From: Escherichia phage KEP4
Length of the DNA stretch: 64,000 bases
Direction: 5' to 3' (one strand)
Sequence record: PP047754
In this document: positions 33,092-61,142 of the stretch, piece after piece
Numbering within the stretch: position 1 is the first letter of the stretch
Layout: each line of letters begins with the position of its first letter
Program-made: the position numbers and the translations under genes
The notes under the pieces: generated by a model
What the model saw: the letters and a program-made list of their open reading frames with translations, nothing else
What the model was told of the DNA's origin: nothing
Databases searched by the model: none

Positions 33092-34873
33092 ATGGCCACG
33101 CAAACAGTTCCTTCACTCGACGTCAGAGCATTTGAATACATTATTAAACAGCGAATGAAAGCTGATCCCACCTTTAAAGATTATGACTTTGAAGGTTCTG
33201 GTCTTAGTGCGATTATTCGTTTGTTGGCATCTGACGCGAACGCCATAGCCTTTATGCAAAACATGCTTAATGGTGAAGGCCATTTGAAGACAGCAAATCA
33301 ACGTTCAAACGTCGGTTTATCTGCTGCATTTCTTTCCTACACGCCTGACAACTATCGGGCAGCATACATGTATGTCAACATCAAAGTTACGCCTTATGAC
33401 GCCAGCACAGCCCCCAATGAGATCATCATGGATCGGCGCGTAATGTTCGTTGGGGCAAAAGACGGCAGTTCCTACAACTTTACTGTTGAGAAACCAGTGT
33501 CGGCAACGTTGACTGCAGACGGTTATTACATGTTCAACAATGTAAAGTTGATACAGGGGAATTGGTTGTACAAGACATATGATGTTGAAGGAAGCGCGAT
33601 TTCAACATATACGATTCCTTCTGGGAATGTCGATATCAATCATATGGTCGTGCAAGTACAAGAATCAGAGTCTTCCGACGTTTCGACGACATATCAACGT
33701 TACAACAGTCCATTTGATCTGAGCCAATATGCCTACCTGTATTTCGTAGAATTGGGTATTGATGGTCTGTATGTGTTTGAATTCGGAGATGGTTATCTTT
33801 CGCGTCGAGTAGAAGATGGGAACGTCATATTCCTTCAATACTTAGAAACTTCTGGTGCTGATGGGAATGATATCACAAGCCTGTCATCAGCGTCATCCAT
33901 AGGCGGGTTTAACCAGGTCGATGTAGAATTGGTTTCCGAACGTAGCGCAGGTGGAGACGATCCGGAATCTATTGAGGACACTAAACGGTTGGCTCCTTTA
34001 GCTTATCAGGCTGATGGTGCTGCGGTTACAGAAACAGATTATGGTGTATTGACTGAAAGGTTATTCTCCAACGTCTCCCGAGCTAAATCATATGGTGGTG
34101 ACACGCTGTCTCCTCCTGATTCTGGCTATGTTTACATCGCTGTTATACCTTCTGTTGGTGAGACACTTTCGGACGCTGAGAAGGCCGATATCGTTGCTGC
34201 TCTGGACAAGTATAATGTGGGATCTATTACCCCCAAAGTGGTAGACTCCGAGATCACATATATCCAAGTCTCAACGACTATATTTTGGGATCCGACTTCT
34301 ACAGTCTACGTTGAAGAACAGATGAAAGTTGTTGTTGGAAACAGTATCGTTAAATGGGGTGAAAATAATCTCGGCGGATTTGACCAATTGTTTGACAAAG
34401 AAATATTGCAGGAAGCAATTACAAAAATGGAGCGTTCTATTAACTCGAATATTACTTCGGTTGGTTATAAACGCCATTTCAAACCCGATTATGGAGTCTT
34501 AGACAGTTTTACATTCAGTTATGGAAGAAGTATCAAACCTGGTTCTGTGAAAATAACGGGGTTCAAACCGCTTCCTGCCGAGGTGGATTTCACTTACTAC
34601 ATGCGCGACAATAATGGCGATTTGAACATGTATAAAGTGAATAACAATGACACGACAAAAGAGTTTTTAGTTCAAAAAACAGGGGTTGTAGATTATGCAA
34701 ATGGGGTTGTAGACCTTCAACAGATCACAGTCTCCAACTATAACCCTGAAGGGGTGACCATAGTCGTGTTACCGGATGGACTGAACCAGAACATACAGGC
34801 TACACAAAACCAAGTATTCAAGATTGGTGATGTGGTTGTTACGCCAGAGGTGCGCTATGTCCAAAGATCTTAA
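33092..34873 (+). CDS. baseplate wedge protein, T4 gp6-like (baseplate J family)
   Basis: ORF 33041..34873; start placed at MATQTVPSL... (GGAG RBS). N-terminal ...KDYDFEGSGLSAIIRLLA... matches the gp6 DYDFEGS signature. Confidence 0.7.
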   Translation: MATQTVPSLDVRAFEYIIKQRMKADPTFKDYDFEGSGLSAIIRLLASDANAIAFMQNMLNGEGHLKTANQRSNVGLSAAFLSYTPDNYRAAYMYVNIKVTPYDASTAPNEIIMDRRVMFVGAKDGSSYNFTVEKPVSATLTADGYYMFNNVKLIQGNWLYKTYDVEGSAISTYTIPSGNVDINHMVVQVQESESSDVSTTYQRYNSPFDLSQYAYLYFVELGIDGLYVFEFGDGYLSRRVEDGNVIFLQYLETSGADGNDITSLSSASSIGGFNQVDVELVSERSAGGDDPESIEDTKRLAPLAYQADGAAVTETDYGVLTERLFSNVSRAKSYGGDTLSPPDSGYVYIAVIPSVGETLSDAEKADIVAALDKYNVGSITPKVVDSEITYIQVSTTIFWDPTSTVYVEEQMKVVVGNSIVKWGENNLGGFDQLFDKEILQEAITKMERSINSNITSVGYKRHFKPDYGVLDSFTFSYGRSIKPGSVKITGFKPLPAEVDFTYYMRDNNGDLNMYKVNNNDTTKEFLVQKTGVVDYANGVVDLQQITVSNYNPEGVTIVVLPDGLNQNIQATQNQVFKIGDVVVTPEVRYVQRS

Positions 34874-35711
34874 TAATGGACACAACGGGGTTAAGTATGA
34901 AACTCCGTTGTTCTACCAGAATGATTTCCCTCTGTTCATAGAATTTATGGACACGTTTTTCAATTGGCTGTATAGACAGCAGGGGTTCACTCAAGAAGAG
35001 ATCTTGGCATATCTGGCAGATACGTCTAGTTGGATGAATCCCGAGAGTGAAGATTCTCCGGTTAAACAGCTGATTGATTTAAAGGCTGACAAGACTCCAG
35101 GCTCAGAGGCCAAGGATTATTTGTCTGATAAATTCTTGGTTCGTACCTTTGAGAACATGATGGCTCTGGATGCCGAAGAACTTTTAGATGCCGACGGAAG
35201 GCCGCTATTGTCAATAGAAGATAAGAACAAACAGATAGATGACTGGTATAATGATTTTGGTTTCCAACGAACTGTTGATAAATCATTTCAGGAATTTGGT
35301 CATTTTATCCCAGTTGGTTCGGATTCTTTGCTGACGGCAACGGGAGACAGGTTCTCAGTTTACATTGAAGGAACGAAACGGAGAACGCTAGATCATCCAC
35401 GTTGGTTGAAACTGTTAAAACATATCTATAAAATCCGCGGAACCAAGAAAGCAATTGAATTGTTCTTTTGGATATATTTTGGTTGTCCAGTCAGTGTCTA
35501 TTTCCCAAAAGAGGAAATAGGCGGTCTGGATGGCAATTTTGAATGTGACGGTATGACAGGGATGCGTGATGACTATTATTATGATGAGTACACTTACGTG
35601 ATAAGAGTCCCAGGCGACGTATCTGATTTCGAAGGCGTATTTGAACGTGTCTTCCGTCAGCATTTCCATCCTGCTGGGTTTACTGTATTCCTAGAAAGTT
35701 CAAGGAGCTAA
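34857..35711 (+). CDS. putative baseplate-associated structural protein
   Basis: ORF 34824..35711; start placed at MSKDLNNG... (GAGGTG RBS), 17-nt overlap with gp6-like gene. Function from position only. Confidence 0.45.
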   Translation: MSKDLNNGHNGVKYETPLFYQNDFPLFIEFMDTFFNWLYRQQGFTQEEILAYLADTSSWMNPESEDSPVKQLIDLKADKTPGSEAKDYLSDKFLVRTFENMMALDAEELLDADGRPLLSIEDKNKQIDDWYNDFGFQRTVDKSFQEFGHFIPVGSDSLLTATGDRFSVYIEGTKRRTLDHPRWLKLLKHIYKIRGTKKAIELFFWIYFGCPVSVYFPKEEIGGLDGNFECDGMTGMRDDYYYDEYTYVIRVPGDVSDFEGVFERVFRQHFHPAGFTVFLESSRS

Positions 35712-35713
35712 AA

Positions 35714-36904
35714 ATGGCCGATTTCCTGAGTCAATATACAGGTCAGCAGATAGATCAGATATTGGGTTCTGTTGACGACAAAGTAAGTAAAAATGACGTT
35801 ATTAACGATTTTGAAGTTAACGACCCATTGTTTCCACCATCTGCTCGCCTGACATATGAGTTGAAAAGATCTGTTGACACAATCAATGATACTCTGGCCA
35901 ACAAAGTTATTCGTACAGATAGTGGTGAACAAACAATCAATGGCAAAAAGACTTTCAATGCGTTGTTGGTGACCAATGGGGGCATACAAGTCCCCGCCGG
36001 AAAATCCGTTTCAATCACAGATGAACCAACGAACTCGACAGATGGTGTTAACCTGAGCATGTTGAGAAAGCATGGCGTCAGTGAAGACACTACCCCGCCT
36101 GGTTCTGGTTTGGCTGGGGAGTTGTTGACATCCGGATATTACAAATTCAATTTGGATTTCACCAGATTGTCTGCGTATACCGGACCAACGTTGCCGACTT
36201 CAGTTCCTGTACAGACAGATTCTGGAGCGCGTTATTGGACAATGACTGCATTTTTTGATGCGTTGTTTGCAGACAACCGATTTAATGGATATGTGACAAC
36301 GACAGCGTATGACGCAGATATGCTGAGTCTAGAGTCTCAAATTAATAACATCAACACGTCGTTGAACGGGAAAGTCAACACCTCGACTTACAACACTAAG
36401 ATGGCGTCGTTGGATTTGAGTATCTCCAATATCAACACGTCTCTGGGTAATAAAGTCGAGGTCAGCACATATAATACGAAGATGACTTCCTTGGACGGCA
36501 GTATCAGTTCTCTCACGACTGGTAAGGTCGATGTATCAACGTATAATGCCAAAATGACCACAATTGATAACAGTTTAGGGAACGCAGTTTATCGCACAAA
36601 AACAAACTTGTCGTCATACACGGTTTCGGCTTCGGGAACGACGGCTCTTCCAGATTTTGATTTGGTGAACCTTTGTCAAATACTGGTAACTGCGCAATGG
36701 GGGACAGGTAACGTTGTTGACACATATCGAGTAACCATAACTCGTGACGGAACGATCAAATCAGAGTTGTTGGTTCAGAAAAGTACGAGTGGTACAGTGA
36801 CGTTCACAGGGTCTGTGGTGGGCGGTAAATTGAGAATTTCCGTTGTTAATGCGAATACAACAACTGCTTGTTCTGTCGATTATTCTATTGCAGCTTCTTT
36901 CTAA
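35714..36904 (+). CDS. tail fibre-like protein with tandem ~20-aa repeats
   Basis: 396-aa ORF; central repeats (NTSLNGKVNTSTYNTKMASLD / NTSLGNKVEVSTYNTKMTSLD / TGKVDVSTYNAKMTTID) typical of fibrous trimeric proteins. Confidence 0.55.
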   Translation: MADFLSQYTGQQIDQILGSVDDKVSKNDVINDFEVNDPLFPPSARLTYELKRSVDTINDTLANKVIRTDSGEQTINGKKTFNALLVTNGGIQVPAGKSVSITDEPTNSTDGVNLSMLRKHGVSEDTTPPGSGLAGELLTSGYYKFNLDFTRLSAYTGPTLPTSVPVQTDSGARYWTMTAFFDALFADNRFNGYVTTTAYDADMLSLESQINNINTSLNGKVNTSTYNTKMASLDLSISNINTSLGNKVEVSTYNTKMTSLDGSISSLTTGKVDVSTYNAKMTTIDNSLGNAVYRTKTNLSSYTVSASGTTALPDFDLVNLCQILVTAQWGTGNVVDTYRVTITRDGTIKSELLVQKSTSGTVTFTGSVVGGKLRISVVNANTTTACSVDYSIAASF

Positions 36905-45590: not shown

Positions 45591-47825
45591 ATGAATCCGC
45601 AATTTGCTCAACCAAAAGGTTCTACTTCAAAAGAATCGAATAAAGATAGCATCGCCCGTAAATTTGGGTGCAAAAAGTCGGAAGTCGTTTATGCGAAATC
45701 AGGACAGTCCTTGTCTGGTTATAAGGTTATTTATGACAAGGAAACACAGAGAGCGTATTCCTTGCCTGTAGATATTCCAGCAGGAACCACGGTTATTAGC
45801 CTTAGCGCCAGTGCTCTGCTTGTACACTCTGGGGGTTCTGTAGACCTGGGCGAACTAGCTTCCCAACGCAATGAATATAATGTATTACCTGGTTCTTTTA
45901 CTACTGGTGCAATAGTATCCACAAAGAATGATGTACTTACCCACAATGGTATCCAGTATCGTTGGAATGGTTCATTACCTAAAGTTGTACCTCAGAACTC
46001 TTTACCATCCAGTGATGATAATTGGATTGGCTTGGGTGCTTCTTATCTGAAGGAACAGCTTAACAGTACCAGTGGTGCATCCATGGTAGTACTGGCTAAT
46101 GGCAAAACCATTGAAGAAGAATTTGCCGAAGAAGCTGCATGGCAGAACCAAGAGAATATGGTGAGAACCGTTATTCCTAATGTTTATCACCATATCCGTG
46201 GCGTTCAGCGTCACTCTGGTAAAAACTTAGCATGGTCTGCTCCAGACGTTGCTATTGATAAACTTAACCCTACGGATACCGTCTTCTACCGTATGCCCCA
46301 GATTGTTAAAACTGGTGATGGTACTCTGATGATTTTCTGTAATGAGTTGCATGGTAACAATACAGATATTGGTGCTACTCCAGATCAGCAATGTAATATC
46401 GTTATGAAATACTCCATTGATAATGGGTGGTCTTGGTCGGCTAAGGTAGTGGTAGCTAACTTTGGGGCTACGTATCAGAACGGTGAGATTGCTGCTGTGT
46501 ATAACCCAGCAGATGGTCGGGTATACTGTTACTTTACTTCCTGCAAAGGCCAGTTGGGTTGGGGATACTCACAGCCAGGCAATGACCCTAATACATCATC
46601 CCAGATATATGTTACCTACTGTGATGCGGAAGCTCCTACTATATGGCGTACACCAGCTAACCTTACTGCTACCCTTAAGCCAGCAACGGCAGATTTTATC
46701 TGGACTTCACCAACTAAACCAGTTGTTTTACCGGATGGTAAGATGGCAATGATTGTGTCTACCGTCACTGGTTCACGGGTTGATTCTTTCCTTACCATCA
46801 TGAAGTATGACATTAAGTACAGCATGGACTACGTACTTAGTTCCGAAGAATCTGGTGGGGAAGTCGGACTGAACCTTTTGCCGGATGGTCGTATGGTGAT
46901 GAACTCTCGTGCTTACCACACCACAGACCTTAAAGGGCTTCAGAAATTCTATATCAGTGATCATCAGTTTAAGAACTGGCAGCACTTATCTGATTTAGTT
47001 ACATCGGATAGTAAGGGTGACCTGGTTCCTATTTTTGATGGGGTTAATGGTGTTCTTACTTGGGCGTTTACTTGTGCTAATGGTGTAGGTGATAATTCTA
47101 TTGGTCGTACTAACTACCGAGTATGGATTAGTCGTGACCTAGTTACTTGGGGGTTAGCTCCTACTGGGGATATCAACACAAGTGATTCTGTTGGGTACAT
47201 CGCATCAATGCCTGGTGGTGATGATGGTTATGTAATCTCTACATCTGAATCAGGTGGTTTTGGTGGTATTTGGTTTACTCAATGGAATGCTAAGTATATC
47301 CAGAACAGAAACTACAACCGCTATCACAAAGAGTTGCGAGAATTAGAGTCAGTAGATGAAACAGCAATGCTCGCATCCGGTGCTATTCCTAACTACTCTT
47401 TTTACGTAAACAAAGACTCCAACCTAATTAACTTCAACCGCAACGGTACTCCAGTTAAGATTCAGCAGTTGGGGGTTAGTCAGAATGCTGTTGATAAGTA
47501 CACTACAACTCAGACCCTAGCATCTATTCCTGTAGATGGTGTTGATATTGTATTAGTCACTGGTTCTGGTACTACTCTTACCCTTAGTGGGTTTAGCGGT
47601 GGATATATGGGCCAGCGTGTGACAGTTATCTCTGATTCATCTGGTGGTGGGGTGGTGCTTAAACGTGCTGATACAACATTGCCTACTGTAACGGACAGAT
47701 TCCACTTTAATGTGGCAGGAGCCTTTACTGCTTTGAGGGTAGACTATGCAACTAAGATGATGGCTACTTTAGTTAAGACTCCATCTGGTTGGTTCACGGA
47801 AAGTATTGCTAACGTAACAATCTAA
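45591..47825 (+). CDS. tailspike protein 4 with putative sialidase/BNR-like domain
   Basis: 744-aa ORF; N-terminus homologous to tailspike 2; one canonical Asp-box SIDNGWSW and one degenerate (SRDLVTW). Confidence 0.65.
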   Translation: MNPQFAQPKGSTSKESNKDSIARKFGCKKSEVVYAKSGQSLSGYKVIYDKETQRAYSLPVDIPAGTTVISLSASALLVHSGGSVDLGELASQRNEYNVLPGSFTTGAIVSTKNDVLTHNGIQYRWNGSLPKVVPQNSLPSSDDNWIGLGASYLKEQLNSTSGASMVVLANGKTIEEEFAEEAAWQNQENMVRTVIPNVYHHIRGVQRHSGKNLAWSAPDVAIDKLNPTDTVFYRMPQIVKTGDGTLMIFCNELHGNNTDIGATPDQQCNIVMKYSIDNGWSWSAKVVVANFGATYQNGEIAAVYNPADGRVYCYFTSCKGQLGWGYSQPGNDPNTSSQIYVTYCDAEAPTIWRTPANLTATLKPATADFIWTSPTKPVVLPDGKMAMIVSTVTGSRVDSFLTIMKYDIKYSMDYVLSSEESGGEVGLNLLPDGRMVMNSRAYHTTDLKGLQKFYISDHQFKNWQHLSDLVTSDSKGDLVPIFDGVNGVLTWAFTCANGVGDNSIGRTNYRVWISRDLVTWGLAPTGDINTSDSVGYIASMPGGDDGYVISTSESGGFGGIWFTQWNAKYIQNRNYNRYHKELRELESVDETAMLASGAIPNYSFYVNKDSNLINFNRNGTPVKIQQLGVSQNAVDKYTTTQTLASIPVDGVDIVLVTGSGTTLTLSGFSGGYMGQRVTVISDSSGGGVVLKRADTTLPTVTDRFHFNVAGAFTALRVDYATKMMATLVKTPSGWFTESIANVTI

Positions 47826-47831
47826 AATACA

Positions 47832-47858
47832 AGCCCCCAATAAGGGGGCTTTCTTTTG
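47832..47858 (+). terminator. rho-independent terminator
   Basis: AGCCCCC-AATAA-GGGGGCT hairpin followed by TTCTTTTG, just after the tailspike 4 stop. Confidence 0.7.
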
Positions 47859-47955
47859 CTATGTCTCGTTAACCTGACAGGAACTGGAAGTTCAAAACTA
47901 TCTATTGGCTGTATACTAAATATCTCTATAAAATGGCACTCGATGGAGCATCAAA

Positions 47956-50900
47956 ATGCAATCTACAAATTTAAACCGTCGCCCGTATTGGGATGACTGG
48001 AATCCTGGGAAACGTTTTTCACGGATTCTTTTTCGTCCGATGCCTATCAAGGTTCAGACTCGCGAACTGAATCAGATGCAGACTATTCTTCAGGATCAAA
48101 TTGAAAAACTGGGCAACCATTTGTTCAAAGATGGTTCTATGGTTATCCCTGGCGGTTTGACGATCACTAACGCCGCAGTCTCTTTGAAATTCACTTTGGC
48201 TGGTGGTACTGAATTCACTGATCTGGAAGGTATTTCTGAACTCTACGTTTTGGGGAAAGACAATAACGCCAAAGCGCGTGTGCTGTCTCTTGAACGTGAT
48301 CTGTCTGCTCCTGATACAATGCTGGCTATCCTTGAGATGACTGAAGCGGGTAATGCTGACGGATTCCATGTTAACGATAATCTGTATTTCCAGACTTACG
48401 ACGTGAATGATAATTTCATTCGTATTGGTTATGGGATCGCGGCTGCTGTGACTGGTTCTATCGTTGCTCGTATGACGAAAGGCGTTTACTTCATTCGTGG
48501 GATGTTCCTAGACGTTGATGACGCGACTCTTATCGTTGATAAAACTTCGAACACGTCTTCCCACCGCGTCGGATTTAAAGTCACTGAAACCATCGTGACT
48601 GAATCTGAAGACGAATCCCTTTATTCAAATGCTCAGGGAACGATTAACTCCAAAGCCCCAGGCGCTCATCGTCTTCGAATAGATCTGGTCTTATCTCGAT
48701 TTGATTATGATGCTGTGGTTGAAGACTTTGTTGAACTGGCCAAAGTTCGTGATGGTAAAATCCAGTCTATGGTGACTCAGTCCACCTATAATATTCTGGA
48801 AGACACGTTGGCCCAACGGACGTATGAAACCAACGGCGATTACAACGTTTCAACGCACCAGATCGACATCCGCGAACACCTGAAAGTCAATAACAATGGT
48901 GGTGTATTCAATGCTGCTGATGGCGGCGACGAAAGTAAATTCGTGTCTGTAATGAAACCAGGTATTTCCTATGTTCGCGGTCGCCGTATCGAAAACGTCG
49001 GGGAAGAGTTGGTGATCGTTGATAAGGCGCGGGATACCGATGTCCTGAACAACACCCCTGTTGCGGTGGCCACAGGCAATTATCTGGTCACTAAGAATTC
49101 TAAAGGTGTGCCAGTGATATCCCGCACCGTTCGATACAAATTACTGAATGCTTCAGGCGTTACCCAGGCTACAGCACTTTGTATATCAGCTGAACGTAAT
49201 TCAACAGAATTTCGTCTGTATATGCGCGACCTGGTCGTTACTGGCGATGCATCCACTATCACCAAAGTGTCTTACGAAGAAAGCGGTATCACCATGTTCT
49301 CTGCTGAACTGGAATCCAATCAGTTTAACCAGAGTTCTATGATAGATCTGATCTTCTCTCTTCCGGTATTCGGTGTCAAGACTTTAGCACCAACTGGCTC
49401 CGTGGATATCAACTACACTGTTCTCAGAACGTATAAAGTGACGTTGGACAACAGCGGCGCGGGTTCTATTTCTGCTCCATTGGGATATAGTTTTTCCCCA
49501 GAATTTTCGTTGTACTCTGCAGCGAAATCTGATGGTTCTGAAGCGCAGTTCGATATCTCTGGTTCTTTGTCTTTGACTGGTTCTCCGGTCGGTTCGGCGT
49601 TGCAGATTTCTCTGGGCAGTGGTAATGCTAACCAGTCAATCAATTTGCTGGCGCTGATGATTCGTACCACGGCCACAATCAAAACGAAGACCATCACTGA
49701 AACAACTGAAACAGTGACGTTCACCTCGCAGACTAGCCACCCTTTGGCGAATCACGATGGTTGGAAATTGGTGTCGGTCAAAAACGATACTGGCGCAGAC
49801 GTGACCTCCAGCTTCGTCCTAGATGGCGGACAGCGTGATGCAGGGTATTACAAGTCTAACTTGTTATCCAGCGCTGGAGCAATCTCAGGGACGTATACAG
49901 TGGTGTATCAATACTTCGCCCACAGTTCCGGTGATTTCTTCTCTGCTGATTCGTATACTTCGATGGATTATAAAGATATCCCGAATTATACATCTTCTAC
50001 ATCAGGCGCGGTGTACGGCCTGGCAGATAGTTTGGATTTCCGTCCGAAAATCACCAACGGAACTTCTGACACAGATATGGTTCGTCCAAACACTGCAGTT
50101 ATTCTGGACACAGAATATTATCTGCCGCGTATTGACGCGATTTATCTGGCAGATAACGGTGTGTTTGGTGTGGCTCGTGGCATCAGTTCGAACAATCTGG
50201 CTTCTCCAGCAATCCCAGCGAACGCCATGCGTTTGTATGAATTGTTGATCCCACCGTATACGCCGAATATTGATGATATCCAAATTCGCACTATTGACAA
50301 TCGTCGTTATACGATGCGCGATATCGGTAAACTGGAAACCCGTATTTCCAATGTTGAATACTATACCTCTCTGTCACAGTTGGAATCTTCAGCGATGACA
50401 CAGCAAGTGTTTGACCCCATCACGGGTAATCCTCGTTTCAAAAATGGTATTGCAGCTGATCCGTTCAAAGACTTCCGGTTGATTGATGACTTGTCTGAAG
50501 ATTGGATGGGTTCTATCGATACCGAAAACGGACGTCTGCGCCCGTTTGTACAACAAAACGTTGTTGACATGACTCCGGTTGGCTGGAACAAAGTGATGGA
50601 TGGGATGGTGGTTTGTAATTACACGCCTGAAATCTCAGTGAACCAAGAATATGCGACGACGACGATCAACGTTAACCCGTATGCAGTATTCAACTGGGAA
50701 GGTTTCTTGAAGATTAACCCGACCACGGACTACTGGTTCGAAAACTATTATGTTGCCCCGCGTATTATTAATGAAACGATCAACACCCGTGGTACTGTAC
50801 AAGAAGGTTCAGTGTACGGAACATGGCGGACTGTTTCTGTTTCTGATCGTGTTTGGGAGCCGCATGGTGCTGGTGGTGTGTGGTGGGGATATCGTTACCG

Positions 50901-52794
50901 CACGACTGTTTCTGCCCGTGATGTGACCACATACACATACACAGACAAAACAACCACGACCATGACTGGTGAACAGATTGTGGAGACGCAAGTTATCCCA
51001 TACATGCGCGAGATCGATATTTCTTTCGACGCATCTGGACTGCGACCTTTCACTCGTATGTATGCGTTCTTCTCTGGTCGTGACGTCAATCTGTATTGCA
51101 AACCGAATGGCGGTAATTTCGGTGACCCAATCACCACTGATGCCAATGGTGCTGTTAAAGGTGTATTCCGCGTTCCACAGAACGATACAATCAAGTTCAA
51201 CACAGGTGACAACGTGTTCCGCTTGACAGATAGCCCTGTTGATAGTAAATCTGCGGATGATACACTGACCAATGCAGAAATTGTTCATAAATCTTTCGGC
51301 AAGAAACAAGGTATTCAAAAGACCTTTGTCAACACTCGTGTCTTGGGTTACACTGCCAGCACTCGCACCGAAACTTCTACTTCTGAAGTTGTGGTCGACC
51401 AATGGCGTGATCCGATTGCCCAATCGTTTATGGTGGCGACTAAGATTGGCGGCGAGTATATCGAAGGCGTGGAAGTATTCTTCTCTACCAAATCTCGCGA
51501 TGTACCGATCACTTTGGAAATTCGCGAGATGGAGAATGGCTTACCTTCTCACACAGTCATTACTCGTAAGACTTTGAACCCATCTGAAGTGACGATCTCT
51601 ACAGACTCTTCCGGCGGTACGAAGTTCACCTTTGATTATCCGGTGTATCTGCAAGCATCGACTGAGTTTGCTATCGTTTTGTTGGCGAATACTCAGGATT
51701 ACAACGCGTATATCGCGGAAATGGGCAAGAAAAACCTTCTGTCCAACGAATATATCGCCAAACAACCGTATACAGGGGTGTTCTTCACTTCTTCAAACGG
51801 TTCAACTTGGTCTCCGAACCAAATGGCTGATATGAAATTCCGCATATATCGTTGCAACTTTGCGGCTGGTCAGAACGTTGTAACATTTGATCCGAAGCTC
51901 GGGCCAAAACAACGTCCTCTGGGTCTGAACACTCTCAACTGTGTGAGCGGGTCTTCTGTTGTGACGGTGTTTGCACCTGGTCATGGTTTGGTTGCTGGGA
52001 ACAATGTTACTCTGTCTGAATTGACAGGTGGTTGTGGGTTCACCCCAGAACAACTCAACAAAACATTTACCGTGACAGACGCAAGCTATACTTCATTCAA
52101 GATTGATGTTGGCGCAGCAGCAGACAGCAACGGTCAGATTGGTGGTGACAACGCATCTTTCTTGGGCAATTATCTGGTTGATATGTTCTATGCCAGTGTC
52201 ACCAATTCAGCTCTGGAAGGTTCAATTCTGAAATTGGAATATCGCTATCGCGATGCTACTTCCAATTCTATGTCTGATTGGGCTGAATTTGAAACTGACA
52301 CTGACGTGGCGTTGCCGACTGAAGGGATCTATCGTCAGGTCGGGGATTTCCAGATCCGAGCCACCATGACGCGCAGTGAAAACAACGTGTACACCGCTCC
52401 AATGATTGATGGTGATGACCTGAGCGTAATCTTCAACTCATACGGCGTGGATCCATTTGAAGATGTCTTCAAATATGTGACAAAAGACATCGGATTTGAT
52501 AACCCATGTTCGACTGTGAAGTTGTTCTTTGGTGCAATGCTCCCATCTCAGTCTTCTATGAAGGTGCAGGTGAAACTTCTTAGAGCAGGTCAGGAGATGG
52601 ATAGTGTGGCTTGGGAAGATGTTACTCCAACGTCGCCTCTGGTCAACGACGGTTCTACATTCTTTGAATATGAATACGACAAGACTGTGGCGAGCAATAA
52701 CCCGTTTGTTGGCCTGAAAGTCCGAGCGCTTGTACGGGGGAACCGCGTTGCTCCTCCATCATTCAAAGACTTCCGTCTTATTGCTCTGGCATAA
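47956..52794 (+). CDS. very large virion structural protein (putative baseplate/tail-fibre-associated)
   Basis: 1612-aa ORF with the CTAAATATC motif 32 nt upstream; Thr/Ser/Gly/Asn-rich like fibrous proteins. Function inferred from position between tailspikes and neck genes. Confidence 0.55.
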   Translation: MQSTNLNRRPYWDDWNPGKRFSRILFRPMPIKVQTRELNQMQTILQDQIEKLGNHLFKDGSMVIPGGLTITNAAVSLKFTLAGGTEFTDLEGISELYVLGKDNNAKARVLSLERDLSAPDTMLAILEMTEAGNADGFHVNDNLYFQTYDVNDNFIRIGYGIAAAVTGSIVARMTKGVYFIRGMFLDVDDATLIVDKTSNTSSHRVGFKVTETIVTESEDESLYSNAQGTINSKAPGAHRLRIDLVLSRFDYDAVVEDFVELAKVRDGKIQSMVTQSTYNILEDTLAQRTYETNGDYNVSTHQIDIREHLKVNNNGGVFNAADGGDESKFVSVMKPGISYVRGRRIENVGEELVIVDKARDTDVLNNTPVAVATGNYLVTKNSKGVPVISRTVRYKLLNASGVTQATALCISAERNSTEFRLYMRDLVVTGDASTITKVSYEESGITMFSAELESNQFNQSSMIDLIFSLPVFGVKTLAPTGSVDINYTVLRTYKVTLDNSGAGSISAPLGYSFSPEFSLYSAAKSDGSEAQFDISGSLSLTGSPVGSALQISLGSGNANQSINLLALMIRTTATIKTKTITETTETVTFTSQTSHPLANHDGWKLVSVKNDTGADVTSSFVLDGGQRDAGYYKSNLLSSAGAISGTYTVVYQYFAHSSGDFFSADSYTSMDYKDIPNYTSSTSGAVYGLADSLDFRPKITNGTSDTDMVRPNTAVILDTEYYLPRIDAIYLADNGVFGVARGISSNNLASPAIPANAMRLYELLIPPYTPNIDDIQIRTIDNRRYTMRDIGKLETRISNVEYYTSLSQLESSAMTQQVFDPITGNPRFKNGIAADPFKDFRLIDDLSEDWMGSIDTENGRLRPFVQQNVVDMTPVGWNKVMDGMVVCNYTPEISVNQEYATTTINVNPYAVFNWEGFLKINPTTDYWFENYYVAPRIINETINTRGTVQEGSVYGTWRTVSVSDRVWEPHGAGGVWWGYRYRTTVSARDVTTYTYTDKTTTTMTGEQIVETQVIPYMREIDISFDASGLRPFTRMYAFFSGRDVNLYCKPNGGNFGDPITTDANGAVKGVFRVPQNDTIKFNTGDNVFRLTDSPVDSKSADDTLTNAEIVHKSFGKKQGIQKTFVNTRVLGYTASTRTETSTSEVVVDQWRDPIAQSFMVATKIGGEYIEGVEVFFSTKSRDVPITLEIREMENGLPSHTVITRKTLNPSEVTISTDSSGGTKFTFDYPVYLQASTEFAIVLLANTQDYNAYIAEMGKKNLLSNEYIAKQPYTGVFFTSSNGSTWSPNQMADMKFRIYRCNFAAGQNVVTFDPKLGPKQRPLGLNTLNCVSGSSVVTVFAPGHGLVAGNNVTLSELTGGCGFTPEQLNKTFTVTDASYTSFKIDVGAAADSNGQIGGDNASFLGNYLVDMFYASVTNSALEGSILKLEYRYRDATSNSMSDWAEFETDTDVALPTEGIYRQVGDFQIRATMTRSENNVYTAPMIDGDDLSVIFNSYGVDPFEDVFKYVTKDIGFDNPCSTVKLFFGAMLPSQSSMKVQVKLLRAGQEMDSVAWEDVTPTSPLVNDGSTFFEYEYDKTVASNNPFVGLKVRALVRGNRVAPPSFKDFRLIALA

Positions 52795-52846
52795 ATAGTG
52801 TTGAAAGGTGGGCGTAAAGCCCACCAAACCAATAGAGGATAAAGAT

Positions 52847-53095
52847 ATGCGTGGAATGAAAGTACAGGGGCACGCATCCATGTTGAGAAGCAGTTCTTGT
52901 CCAGGCGCGATCATTTGTACTGATCATGCTGCAGGTATGGCTGCATTGCAAGCCCGTCAACGCAACGAAACCCGTGAAGCCACCATTGTTGAACAATCAA
53001 ACCAGATATCGAATCTGGAGGCGACGATCAAAATGATGGCCGAAAAGTTGGGGATAGAAATCCCCGAAGGAGGTCAGAATGGCGACGCAAGCTGA
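52847..53095 (+). CDS. hypothetical small protein
   Basis: ORF 52808..53095 trimmed to MRGMKVQG... with GAGGA RBS. Confidence 0.4.
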   Translation: MRGMKVQGHASMLRSSSCPGAIICTDHAAGMAALQARQRNETREATIVEQSNQISNLEATIKMMAEKLGIEIPEGGQNGDAS

Positions 53096-53420
53096 AAGAT
53101 CTGGGCTTGATATCCGTGGTATCTTGACTGCTGTCGTGGCTTCTGCATTGGTCTCGGCGGCGTCGTTCCTTTGGTTTATGGGTGGGATGGAAACACGCGT
53201 GAATGTATTGGAGCGAGATTCTAATAAAATGGATCAGGTCCTTCAAAAGGTGAATGACATGAGTGAGCGCATGGCGATCATGAATACAGACCTCGCATAT
53301 GTCAAACAAAATATGGCTGAGTTAAAACTCAATAGCAGCAGCCTATCAGACGATGTCCGCACATTGCGGATTACTGTATCTGATTTGCAGCAACGAGGGA
53401 ATAACAATGGCCGTCAATAA
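53079..53420 (+). CDS. membrane-anchored coiled-coil protein
   Basis: 113-aa ORF with GGAGG RBS; one transmembrane helix (ILTAVVASALVSAASFLWF) then heptad-like sequence. Confidence 0.5.
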   Translation: MATQAERSGLDIRGILTAVVASALVSAASFLWFMGGMETRVNVLERDSNKMDQVLQKVNDMSERMAIMNTDLAYVKQNMAELKLNSSSLSDDVRTLRITVSDLQQRGNNNGRQ

Positions 53421-54461: not shown

Positions 54462-55103
54462 ATGGCTACTTCAAAATATTTCAACTATACAGCACACCAA
54501 GGTACTCAGAAATTAATTGACGACTTGGTGGTCGAGATGATACAACTACGTGGGATTGACGTCAAGTATATTCCACGTTCCATCGTTGAAAAATACCCAA
54601 TTTTAAACGAGGCTGAACATAAATTCGACCAGGCGTTCGATATCGAAGTATACATGCAAGATTACCAAGGCTTTAACACCCAAATGTGGGAGAAGTTTGG
54701 CGGTATTCAATTACAAGATGAAGTGACGTTCACCATTGCTCGTCGCCGTTTTTCGGAAGTGATTGGTAATGGGCCAGGACTTGAGCAGATGCCTCAAGAA
54801 GGTGATTTGATATACCTCCCAATGGCGAACAAGATATTCAAAGTGAATAACCCGAATAACGACGAAGAATTTATGCAATTCGGTAAATGGTACACATATT
54901 CCTTACCGTGCACGTTGTTCCAATATGGTAATGAAGATTTTGATACTGGTGTATCTGAAATTGACGACATCGATAAACGTTTACAAGATCTAGACGGCGA
55001 TGGTGTCTATAAAGATGCCAGTCTACAGACAGATAACCAATTTGCGGACGAAATAGAGAAAGATCTTTCGCCCAATAAAATGAAGATAGACTTCGGGGAA
55101 TAA
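54462..55103 (+). CDS. putative neck protein (gp14 position)
   Basis: 213-aa ORF with CTAAATACC motif 22 nt upstream; assignment by synteny only. Confidence 0.45.
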   Translation: MATSKYFNYTAHQGTQKLIDDLVVEMIQLRGIDVKYIPRSIVEKYPILNEAEHKFDQAFDIEVYMQDYQGFNTQMWEKFGGIQLQDEVTFTIARRRFSEVIGNGPGLEQMPQEGDLIYLPMANKIFKVNNPNNDEEFMQFGKWYTYSLPCTLFQYGNEDFDTGVSEIDDIDKRLQDLDGDGVYKDASLQTDNQFADEIEKDLSPNKMKIDFGE

Positions 55104-60683: not shown

Positions 60684-61142
60684 ATGATATACGCATACAA
60701 AATTGAAACGATAACTAATGGAAAGGTCTACATCGGTGTGACCAATCACCCACAACGAAGATATGATCAGCATTTTGCGAATGCTTTTCATCATGGAGTC
60801 CAAAGTGAATTGTATGATGCCATGCGTAAGTATGGAACATCTGGATTTACTTTCGTTGTAATTGCTCAGACCGATGAAGTCCATAAATGGGAATTAGAGA
60901 AGCAACTCATCGCTCAATATAATTCTTATGAGATGGGTTACAACATGAATAAAGGCGGTAATGATGGAAGTCATATGCTGGGTAAAACTGCAGCAAAATT
61001 GACATCTACAGGTGAACACATTGGTCTTGTTTCTCTCATAGATCCCCGTTGGGAATTGTGTGAAATCGAACCCGTTTTAAGCAATGTTGACCACGGATTT
61101 GATTTTTCTTCCATGAAGATTAAAAGATTGACGACTAATTAG
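60684..61142 (+). CDS. GIY-YIG family homing endonuclease (free-standing)
   Basis: 152-aa ORF; N-terminal IYAYKIETITNGKVYIGVT...RRYDQH is a GIY-YIG motif with the conserved Arg; inserted between the sheath and tube genes. Confidence 0.7.
   Translation: MIYAYKIETITNGKVYIGVTNHPQRRYDQHFANAFHHGVQSELYDAMRKYGTSGFTFVVIAQTDEVHKWELEKQLIAQYNSYEMGYNMNKGGNDGSHMLGKTAAKLTSTGEHIGLVSLIDPRWELCEIEPVLSNVDHGFDFSSMKIKRLTTN

What the first reader, a model, noticed from the sequence alone, without database searches (positions are those of the whole stretch)
47956..52794. 1612-aa structural protein of unassigned function
This is the largest gene in the window, lying between the tailspike cluster and the neck genes with its own late-promoter-like motif and terminator. 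T4 has no counterpart of this size here. It could be a fibre, adhesin or baseplate scaffold specific to this lineage.
Basis: inference. Interest (0 to 1): 0.4.

Follow-up and report, generated by a model that had tools for sequence, protein, structure and literature searches.

The report
Conserved VriC/VrlC baseplate "tripod" protein
The 1612-residue gene is the well-known, conserved VriC/VrlC virion protein of Vi1-like (Ackermannviridae, Kuttervirus) phages, a full-length relative of the baseplate "tripod" protein recently solved in Staphylococcus phage 812, so it is an ordinary phage structural gene and not a lineage-specific novelty.

Summary
The ORF is real and sits exactly where stated: 47956-52794, + strand, ATG start, 1612 aa. 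It is the largest ORF in the window. The window is a Kuttervirus (Ackermannviridae) genome. The gene is CBA120 orf209, annotated "VriC/VrlC" in many of the 242 phage records that match it at DNA level. It exceeds the Pfam DUF4815 threshold (207 bits against a cut-off of 30). It is colinear from end to end with the 1152-aa tripod protein (TmpG/gp119) of Staphylococcus phage 812/K (hhalign probability 100%, E 5e-70). My two AlphaFold models hit only the phage 812 tripod chains significantly in the PDB. The next hits are carbohydrate-binding (CBM22) beta-sandwiches. The family is not lineage-specific: I found 1691 phage records (cyanophages, Herelleviridae, Vibrio, Rhizobium and others) and about 4900 clusters at 50% identity. 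The most likely function is a trimeric peripheral baseplate module, possibly the "prongs" seen by EM. It would contact conserved cell-surface glycans and reorient during tail contraction. Its position in the Ackermannviridae virion has not been shown. Verdict: already known, low interest.

The parts
47831..47851 (+). Intrinsic terminator (8-bp GC-rich stem plus TCTTTTGC) that ends the upstream TSP1 gene. It marks the 5' boundary of the VriC transcription unit.
   Evidence: -15.5 kcal/mol
47916..47922 (+). CTAAATA, a late-promoter-like motif 34-40 nt before the ATG. The same heptamer precedes the TSP4, TSP3, TSP2, 54462 and sheath genes.
   Evidence: 13 matches against 6.4 expected
47927..47934 (+). 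TATAAAAT, one mismatch from the T4 late promoter TATAAATA.
   Evidence: The exact TATAAATA occurs only once in the window, elsewhere.
47945..47948 (+). GGAG ribosome-binding site, 7 nt upstream of the ATG.
   Evidence: read directly from the sequence
47956..52794 (+). VriC/VrlC gene (1612 aa plus stop), a DUF4815 baseplate tripod-family protein.
47962..48147 (+). aa 3-64: conserved N-terminal segment with a long helix (aa 32-56 in the model). It aligns to tripod residues 2-62.
48148..48468 (+). aa 65-171: insertion 1 relative to the phage 812 tripod, a beta-rich domain.
48469..49035 (+). aa 172-360: aligns to tripod residues 75-242.
49036..49743 (+). aa 361-596: insertion 2. About 235 aa stand where the tripod has about 53. 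It is all-beta with pLDDT about 85-93.
49744..51897 (+). aa 597-1314: conserved core, colinear with tripod residues 296-954. It includes the best Pfam DUF4815 stretch (aa 582-930), a long helix (aa 787-815) and the DPIAQSF beta-sandwich (aa 1147-1314).
51973..52200 (+). aa 1340-1415: insertion 3, a small beta domain. It gives a weak, sub-threshold Pfam Phage_spike_2 match (E 0.035).
52201..52773 (+). aa 1416-1606: C-terminal beta-sandwich, aligned to tripod residues 967-1145. It ends in the conserved ...DFRxIALA motif.
52799..52834 (+). Stable hairpin 5 nt after the stop codon, without a T-run. It may be a weak terminator or an RNA-stabilising element.

Best explanation
This is the Kuttervirus/Ackermannviridae VriC (VrlC) protein, a late-expressed, abundant virion protein of the DUF4815 family and a full-length homologue of the Herelleviridae baseplate 'tripod' protein (phage 812 gp119/TmpG, A511 gp106). 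Shown here: the homology, the fold match, the C-terminal CBM-like beta-sandwiches, and near-identity to an orthologue detected in purified virions. Inferred by analogy with phage 812: three copies form a pyramidal trimer on the periphery of the baseplate, probably the 'prong-like' structures seen under the baseplate by EM. After the four variable tailspikes have bound and digested the O-antigen or capsule, the trimers would face the cell surface and bind a conserved surface glycan through their C-terminal beta-sandwich domains. They would then rearrange, stabilising the post-contraction baseplate and helping to couple attachment to sheath contraction. The label 'virulence-associated' is an annotation carried over from a bacterial locus and says nothing about function.
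For: Identity: the gene is 97% identical in DNA over its full length to VriC genes of Salmonella phages S115 and S118, and it equals CBA120 orf209. In all, 241 of 242 matching records cover at least 80% of the gene. Family: Pfam DUF4815 at E 3.8e-61, 207.5 bits against a cut-off of 30, and phrog_358. Homology to a solved protein: phmmer against PDB chain 9euf_0 (1152 aa, labelled DUF4815) gives E 1.2e-51 in four colinear stretches. A profile comparison against TmpG gives probability 100%, E 5e-70, with 1088 aligned columns spanning VriC 7-1617 and tripod 2-1145. That chain is the tripod: the gene order tmpF (arm scaffold), bmpC (gp8-like), tmpG (1152 aa), RBP1, RBP2 matches gp117-gp123 of the paper. 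Fold: the AF2 models have pLDDT 74.9 and 84.9. Their only significant PDB hits are phage 812 tripod chains, at E 2.3e-22, and at E 1.1e-15 with TMq 0.57. The CBM22 tandem 4xup follows at E 5e-4, probability 0.99-1.0. Virion presence: the protein is 1599/1612 identical to Sajous1 gp140, which gave 311 spectra and ranked in the top five in CsCl-purified virions. Mechanism in the homologue: twelve tripod trimers, CBM-like base and fin domains, a lectin-like leg, rotation and refolding on contraction. A511 gp106 forms pyramids that reorient toward the cell wall. A published review links VriC to the prongs. Conservation is fairly even along the protein, in contrast to the mosaic tailspikes: only 15 of 75 TSP1 matches cover at least 80% of that gene. 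This fits a conserved target better than a role in determining host range.
Against: No experiment locates VriC in an Ackermannviridae virion, and I found no cryo-EM of such a baseplate. The PDB holds no closer relative. Sequence comparison did not detect the partners that hold tripods in phage 812 (the arm scaffold with its docking loops, and the gp8-like arm segments) among the neighbouring genes. The best BLASTP result was E 0.055, and the neighbours had no significant PDB sequence hits. Attachment geometry and copy number are therefore unknown. The host is Gram-negative, so the peptidoglycan or teichoic-acid targets proposed for phage 812 do not transfer. VriC carries about 410 extra residues in three insertions of unknown role. 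Trimer formation, glycan binding and conformational switching were not tested here. The monomer model has low confidence at aa 798-914 and 961-988.
Confidence: 0.75

Rival explanations
1. VriC is a passive baseplate scaffold or adaptor. It would be a large peripheral wedge component whose main job is to hold the branched TSP1-4 complex, for example by docking the N-terminal anchor domain of TSP4. It would have no receptor-binding or switching role of its own.
For: The gene is directly adjacent to the tsp cluster in Ackermannviridae. The baseplate partner of the TSP4 anchor domain is not identified. An older immunolocalisation study suggested that the A511 receptor-binding protein gp108 is bound to the VrlC homologue (quoted). 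VriC has three insertions absent from the Staphylococcus tripod that could be docking surfaces. The protein is strongly conserved while the TSPs vary.
Against: In the solved phage 812 baseplate, the receptor-binding proteins attach to the arm scaffold and not to the tripods. The C-terminal half retains the CBM-like and lectin-like beta-sandwich architecture. VriC shows no sequence or fold similarity to T4 gp7, gp10 or other wedge scaffolds in the PDB searches.
Confidence: 0.15
2. VriC is a fibre or tailspike-type primary receptor-binding protein or depolymerase that sets host range.
For: Its size and position next to the tailspikes fit. Some records call homologues 'tail fiber' or 'adsorption-associated tail protein'. 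There is a weak Phage_spike_2 hit at E 0.035.
Against: There is no beta-helix, catalytic or fibre-repeat domain. The Phage_spike_2 score of 14.9 bits is below the cut-off of 25. The protein is 95-99% conserved in 141 records from phages with different hosts and TSP sets, while TSP1 is mosaic. There is no hypervariable C-terminus. The fold matches the tripod and not tailspikes; endosialidase hits have TM below 0.2.
Confidence: 0.05
3. VriC is a bacterial virulence factor carried by the phage, as the label 'virulence-associated protein' suggests.
For: Only the inherited annotation supports this.
Against: The gene lies in the late structural operon behind a late-promoter-like motif. Its product is abundant in purified virions. 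It is homologous to a structurally solved baseplate component. These are virulent phages, and no toxin or enzyme domain was found.
Confidence: 0.01

Closest known systems
Ackermannviridae VriC/VrlC (for example CBA120 orf209, Det7 gp210, Sajous1 gp140, Salmonella phages S115 and S118)
   Same: It is the same gene: 1612 aa, 97% DNA identity and 99% protein identity, in the same position between TSP1 and the small virion and neck genes.
   Different: Nothing of substance. There are 13 substitutions relative to Sajous1 gp140.
Tripod protein of Staphylococcus phage 812/K (gp119 = TmpG; PDB 9EUF, 9EUI, 9EUJ, 9EUK; EMBO J 2026, PMC13433997)
   Same: Both belong to the DUF4815 family. Homology is colinear from end to end (probability 100%, E 5e-70). 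It is the only significant PDB fold match. The C-terminal beta-sandwich, CBM-like domains are shared.
   Different: Identity is only 27% over the aligned columns. VriC is 460 aa longer, with insertions at aa 65-171, 361-596 and 1340-1415. The host is Gram-negative. Arm-scaffold and arm-segment partners were not detectable next to the gene. Pfam did not detect a LysM-like 'hook' at E <= 0.1.
Listeria phage A511 gp106 and its Bacillus phage homologues (Deep-Blue Gp176, Vp4 Gp120)
   Same: They are labelled 'Tail fiber/VrlC'. They form pyramidal baseplate structures that reorient toward the cell wall, and they carry C-terminal CBM and lectin-like folds. Listeria and Bacillus phage records match VriC aa 701-1313 at about 26-28% identity.
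   Different: They are about 1150-1175 aa long and come from Herelleviridae or Gram-positive hosts. I made no direct comparison beyond tblastn, and the A511 structure paper was not available to me.
VrlC proteins of T4-like cyanophages, pelagimyophages and rhizophages (S-PM2-like, HTVC008M, PhiM9, PhiM12)
   Same: They belong to the same family at 29-35% identity over aa 701-1313. They are abundant virion proteins correlated with large double-ringed baseplates.
   Different: Lengths and accessory domains differ. None has been structurally placed.

Membership tests
Pfam DUF4815 / VrlC (PHROG 358) family | Match to the family HMM above the curated gathering score | tested here: met
   PF16075 scores 207.5 bits against a cut-off of 30, E 3.8e-61, in 3 stretches. 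phrog_358 scores 1676.9 bits.
Ackermannviridae VriC orthologue group | Full-length, near-identical orthologues in the conserved position flanking the tsp cluster | tested here: met
   241 of 242 records cover at least 80% of the gene, and 141 are 95-99% identical. Synteny with CBA120 and Sajous1 holds. Protein identity to Sajous1 gp140 is 99%.
Baseplate tripod protein (phage 812 gp119 / A511 gp106 type) | End-to-end colinear sequence homology to the structurally defined tripod protein | tested here: met
   phmmer gives E 1.2e-51. hhalign gives probability 100%, E 5e-70, with 1088 aligned columns spanning VriC 7-1617 and tripod 2-1145.
Baseplate tripod protein (phage 812 gp119 / A511 gp106 type) | Same fold as the solved tripod chain | tested here: met
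   In Foldseek against the PDB, only phage 812 tripod chains are significant: E 2.3e-22 for aa 1-1200, and E 1.1e-15 with TMq 0.57 for aa 1101-1612. Global TM for the N-terminal model is low (0.18-0.25) because domain arrangement differs and three insertions are present.
Baseplate tripod protein (phage 812 gp119 / A511 gp106 type) | Carbohydrate-binding-module-like beta-sandwich domains in the C-terminal half | tested here: met
   The CBM22 tandem (4xup) is the next-best hit, at E 5e-4 and probability 0.99-1.0. This shows fold similarity only; binding was not tested.
Baseplate tripod protein (phage 812 gp119 / A511 gp106 type) | LysM-like C-terminal 'hook' proposed to bind peptidoglycan | tested here: inconclusive
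   No LysM Pfam match appears at E <= 0.1. However, VriC aa 1416-1606 aligns with tripod residues 967-1145, which should include the anchor and hook region. Domain boundaries of the hook are not given in the paper's text.
Baseplate tripod protein (phage 812 gp119 / A511 gp106 type) | Homotrimer docked on loops of a gp7-like arm scaffold protein reinforced by gp8-like arm segments | tested here: inconclusive
   BLASTP of phage K TmpF and BmpC against the neighbouring 295-aa and 396-aa ORFs gave nothing significant. The best result was E 0.055, between TmpF 22-118 and the PF23786 wedge protein. Neither neighbour has a significant PDB sequence hit.
Baseplate tripod protein (phage 812 gp119 / A511 gp106 type) | Physical location at the baseplate periphery and reorientation on contraction | not testable with these tools
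   I found no Ackermannviridae baseplate reconstruction. Only a published suggestion links VriC to the 'prongs'.
Virion structural protein | Detected in purified virions | tested here: met
   The evidence is from the literature, linked here by sequence. Sajous1 gp140 gave 311 spectra in CsCl-purified virions and is 99% identical to the window protein.
Tailspike / depolymerase | Right-handed beta-helix or other catalytic domain, with a variable receptor-binding module | tested here: not met
   No Beta_helix or enzyme domain was found. The neighbouring TSPs do show such features. Conservation is even along the protein.
T4 gp7-type wedge scaffold | Sequence or fold similarity to T4 gp7 | tested here: not met
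   No T4 baseplate chain appears among the PDB sequence hits or the listed top 50 Foldseek PDB matches.

The most novel reading that the evidence does not exclude
VriC may be the long-unassigned 'prong' of Ackermannviridae. On this reading it is a tripod module re-tooled for Gram-negative envelopes. Its three lineage-specific insertions (aa 65-171, 361-596, 1340-1415; about 410 residues) would either dock the TSP4 anchor domain or bind the LPS core or outer membrane. Its tripod-like flip, occurring after the tailspikes have removed O-antigen or capsule, would be the actual trigger for sheath contraction. That would make the tripod switch a conserved trigger shared by myoviruses of Gram-positive and Gram-negative hosts and of cyanobacteria.
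Probability: 0.3. Interest if true: 0.45.

Novelty: already known. Interest (0 to 1): 0.15.

Why it matters
For genome annotation, the practical point is that 'virulence-associated protein VriC' and 'hypothetical protein' should read 'baseplate tripod-family (DUF4815/VrlC) structural protein'. This matters for safety assessments of kutterviruses used in biocontrol and phage therapy, because the word 'virulence' is a false alarm. Biologically, the family is among the most widespread large baseplate proteins: 1691 phage records and about 4900 clusters at 50% identity. Yet it has been placed structurally only in Herelleviridae. The Ackermannviridae version, its partners and its target on Gram-negative cells remain open, but this is a recognised gap and not a new discovery.

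Tried and rejected
I re-ran it with 47 sequences.
3. Plattner et al. 2019 (JMB) and the A511 baseplate paper (EMBO J 2019) are not held in the library. Their content is cited only through papers that quote them.
4. I searched for phage 812-type partners (arm scaffold TmpF, arm segment BmpC) among the neighbours by BLASTP and searched the neighbours against the PDB. Nothing was significant.
5. The exact T4 late promoter TATAAATA occurs once in the window, far from this gene, and is not enriched. I rejected it in favour of CTAAATA.
6. There are no tandem repeats in the gene, so it is not a repeat-built fibre.
7. The 'virulence factor' reading was rejected as annotation transfer.
8. The gp7-equivalent wedge scaffold reading was rejected for lack of any sequence or fold similarity.
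9. The supplement of the phage 812 paper, which would give domain boundaries, is not held.
Full report
OBSERVATION. The mechanical ORF list contains an ATG-initiated ORF at 47956..52794 on the + strand, 1612 aa long. It translates without internal stops. It is the largest ORF in the 64-kb window; the next largest are 1057 and 1051 aa. A GGAG lies 7 nt before the ATG.

WHAT THE WINDOW IS. A megablast of the gene finds 242 phage records. In 241 of them the match covers at least 80% of the gene. They are mostly Salmonella, Klebsiella, Escherichia and Dickeya phages of the family Ackermannviridae. The best matches are 97% identical over the full length (Salmonella phages S115, S118, S8). Where the gene is annotated, it is called 'virulence-associated VriC protein', 'VrlC protein' or 'hypothetical protein'. 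In Escherichia phage CBA120 it is orf209.

The surrounding gene order matches CBA120 (Kuttervirus). It runs: gp6-like wedge, a second wedge subunit, a 396-aa protein, four tailspike genes (TSP4, TSP3, TSP2, TSP1), orf209, two small virion proteins, the gp13-like neck protein, terminase, sheath, tube, portal. PHROG and Pfam scans of the window's own ORFs agree with this order.

REGULATORY SIGNALS. The 130-nt gap upstream starts with a canonical intrinsic terminator at 47831-47851 (8-bp stem, then TCTTTTGC). That terminator belongs to TSP1.

The gap then contains CTAAATA at 47916-47922 and TATAAAAT at 47927-47934. The exact T4 late-promoter octamer TATAAATA occurs only once in the window, elsewhere, and is not enriched.

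CTAAATA occurs 13 times against 6.4 +/- 2.5 expected by chance. It sits 16-44 nt upstream of the start codons of TSP4, TSP3, TSP2, this gene, the gene at 54462 and the sheath gene. It is the better candidate for the lineage's late promoter. This is inference; no transcript data were available.

Downstream of the stop codon there is a strong hairpin at 52799-52834 (-17.2 kcal/mol, z = -4.6). It has no T-run, and the terminator scan did not call it. The claim of 'own late-promoter-like motif and terminator' is therefore half right.

FAMILY. The protein matches Pfam DUF4815 well above threshold (207.5 bits against a cut-off of 30, E 3.8e-61). It shows no enzymatic, beta-helix or fibre domain. A Phage_spike_2 hit at aa 1351-1421 is below threshold. 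It belongs to phrog_358, 'unknown function'. The gene has no tandem repeats.

The family is very large:
- 1034 hits in the word-indexed search. The best 120 listed are mostly about 1570-1720 aa long and most align over their whole length at 31-99% identity. They include Vibrio phage VP-1 and Ralstonia phage RSP15.
- 4948 clusters at 50% identity with E <= 1e-3, of which 2287 have E <= 1e-30, in the exhaustive search with aa 1-1200.
- 1691 phage records by tblastn with aa 701-1313. Synechococcus and cyanophages (about 440), Staphylococcus (342), Bacillus (246), Salmonella, Vibrio, Enterococcus and Listeria lead the count; Rhizobium and Pelagibacter phages are also among the hits.

BFVD fold matches tell the same story. 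The protein is therefore not lineage-specific.

LINK TO A SOLVED STRUCTURE. A sequence search of the PDB finds one real hit. It is an 1152-aa chain labelled 'DUF4815 domain-containing protein / ORF65', present in 15 entries (9EUF, 9EUI, 9EUJ, 9EUK, 9TIC and others). The E-value is 1.2e-51, in four colinear stretches.

These entries are the cryo-EM structures of the Staphylococcus phage 812 baseplate (Binovsky et al., EMBO J 2026, PMC13433997). To decide which component the chain is, I looked at a Kayvirus genome. The 1152-aa gene is tmpG. It lies after tmpF (1019 aa) and bmpC (a T4 gp8 homologue), and before RBP1 and RBP2. That order matches the paper: arm scaffold gp117, arm segment gp118, tripod gp119, RBP1 gp121, RBP2 gp123. 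The chain is therefore the tripod protein.

A profile of 47 VriC-like sequences aligned to TmpG gives probability 100% and E 5e-70. There are 1088 aligned columns, spanning VriC 7-1617 (profile numbering) and TmpG 2-1145 of 1152.

My block map of that alignment shows three places where VriC is longer:
- aa 65-171;
- aa 361-596, where the tripod has about 53 residues;
- aa 1340-1415.
The rest is colinear, including aa 597-1314 against tripod 296-954 and aa 1416-1606 against tripod 967-1145.

STRUCTURE PREDICTION. AlphaFold2 with a 47-sequence alignment gave two models. The model of aa 1-1200 has mean pLDDT 74.9. It is good for aa 20-790 and 1000-1140, and poor around aa 798-914, which contains a long helix and extended segments that probably need the trimer. 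The model of aa 1101-1612 has mean pLDDT 84.9 and pTM 0.72. Its ordered part is almost entirely beta-strand.

In Foldseek against the PDB, the only significant hits for both models are phage 812 tripod chains. For the N-terminal model the best E-value is 2.3e-22. For the C-terminal model the best hit is the pre-contraction chain, at E 1.1e-15 and TMq 0.57 over 482 columns. The CBM22 tandem of a xylanase (4xup) follows at E 5e-4, probability 0.99-1.0. No T4 baseplate protein appears in the hit lists.

WHAT THE HOMOLOGUES DO. In phage 812, twelve tripod trimers sit on 'docking loops' of the arm scaffold protein. Their base and fin domains have CBM16/CBM61-type folds. The leg domain is lectin-like. 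The C-terminal hook resembles LysM. On attachment the outer tripods rotate by about 170 degrees, and all tripods refold so that their legs and hooks point toward the cell wall. New tripod-tripod contacts then stabilise the contracted baseplate.

In Listeria phage A511 the homologue gp106 forms pyramids that reorient to face the cell wall. Bacillus phage homologues labelled 'Tail fiber/VrlC' carry the same CBM folds. [quoted passage not shown] The same paper reports that VrlC correlates with large double-ringed baseplates.

For Ackermannviridae, a 2024 review states that the prong-like structures under the baseplate are of unknown composition and 'may be comprised of' VriC. It bases this on in-silico resemblance to the A511 and phi812 baseplate proteins.

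VIRION PRESENCE. It has effectively been done. Sajous1 gp140 (VriC) gave 311 spectra in CsCl-purified virions and ranked among the five most represented proteins. The window protein is 1599/1612 identical to it.

HOST RANGE OR CONSERVED FUNCTION? VriC is conserved at full length in 241 of 242 matching records, 141 of them at 95-99% identity. The adjacent TSP1 gene is found at full length in only 15 of 75 matching records. Identity along VriC is fairly even, with no hypervariable C-terminal module. This holds both among close relatives (0.56-0.95 per 50-residue block) and among distant ones. This argues against VriC being a serotype-specific receptor-binding protein. It fits a conserved structural or mechanical role, or a conserved target such as the LPS core. 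That last step is inference.

BEST EXPLANATION AND ITS LIMITS. Shown: the gene is the Kuttervirus VriC/VrlC gene. It is a member of the DUF4815 family. It is a full-length homologue and fold-mate of the phage 812 tripod protein. It is abundant in virions of a near-identical phage.

Inferred: it forms trimers at the baseplate periphery (the prongs). It binds conserved surface glycans through its C-terminal beta-sandwich domains once the tailspikes have cleared the O-antigen or capsule. It rearranges during contraction.

Not resolved:
- What it attaches to. BLASTP of the phage K arm scaffold and arm segment against the neighbouring 295-aa (Pfam Baseplate_wedge) and 396-aa ORFs found nothing significant; the best E-value was 0.055. 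Those ORFs have no significant PDB sequence relatives.
- Its copy number.
- The role of the three insertions.
- Whether a peptidoglycan-binding hook equivalent exists. No LysM Pfam hit was found, but the C-terminus aligns with the tripod's C-terminus.
I found no cryo-EM of an Ackermannviridae baseplate in the literature library or in the PDB.

RIVALS.
- A passive adaptor that carries the TSP complex remains possible, at about 0.15. This rests on gene adjacency, the unknown partner of the TSP4 anchor domain, and old A511 immunolocalisation data. [quoted passage not shown]
- A fibre, tailspike or depolymerase is unlikely, at about 0.05.
- A true virulence factor can be dismissed. To my knowledge the name derives from the vrl locus of Dichelobacter nodosus and spread by annotation transfer (my own knowledge, not checked with tools).

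VERDICT. The gene is already known and named, its homology to Herelleviridae baseplate proteins is published, and virion proteomics exist. What this analysis adds is modest:
- an explicit end-to-end alignment to the now-solved tripod;
- a map of three insertions specific to the ~1600-aa VriC-type proteins relative to the phage 812 tripod;
- the CBM-like nature of the C-terminal half;
- a conservation contrast with the tailspikes;
- a better candidate (CTAAATA) for the late promoter.
Interest is low (0.15). Novelty is 'already known'.

Noticed in passing
window 36907, 40135, 42728, 47916, 54432, 58682, 63464 (+ strand): The heptamer CTAAATA, often followed by CCCC and a hairpin, recurs 16-44 nt upstream of late structural genes (TSP4, TSP3, TSP2, VriC, the gene at 54462, sheath). 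It occurs 13 times in the window against 6.4 +/- 2.5 expected. It is probably this lineage's variant of the T4 late promoter TATAAATA. TSP1 (45591) lacks it.
   Followed up: partly
window 34824-35711 (+): This 295-aa ORF matches Pfam PF23786 'Phage baseplate wedge subunit' at E 5.5e-154. However, PHROG and the CBA120 record (orf216) label it 'head closure Hc2', which looks like a propagated mis-annotation. It shows a weak similarity (E 0.055) to the N-terminus of the phage K arm scaffold TmpF.
   Followed up: partly
window 35714-36904 (+): This 396-aa ORF lies between the wedge genes and TSP4. It belongs to phrog_3838 (unknown function) and has no Pfam family or significant PDB sequence hit. 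Its position makes it a candidate baseplate adaptor for the TSP complex or for VriC.
   Followed up: partly
window 45591-47825 (+) compared with 47956-52794: There is a sharp contrast in conservation between neighbours. TSP1 is full-length in only 15 of 75 matching phage records (mosaic, module-swapped). VriC is full-length in 241 of 242. The recombination boundary therefore lies in the 130-nt spacer or at the 5' end of VriC.
   Followed up: partly
window 60684-61142 (+): This 152-aa ORF lies between the sheath and tube genes. It corresponds by position and size to CBA120 orf195, annotated as a GIY-YIG homing endonuclease. That would be a mobile-element insertion inside the tail gene block. 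I did not check the sequence itself.
   Followed up: no
window 52847-53095 and 53079-53420 (+): Two small ORFs (82 and 113 aa) lie immediately after VriC. They belong to phrog_4322 ('virion structural protein') and phrog_3961 (unknown function). In A511 a small protein encoded next to the VrlC homologue (gp107) has been suggested to be a chaperone or binding domain for it. Whether either small ORF plays that role here is untested.
   Followed up: no
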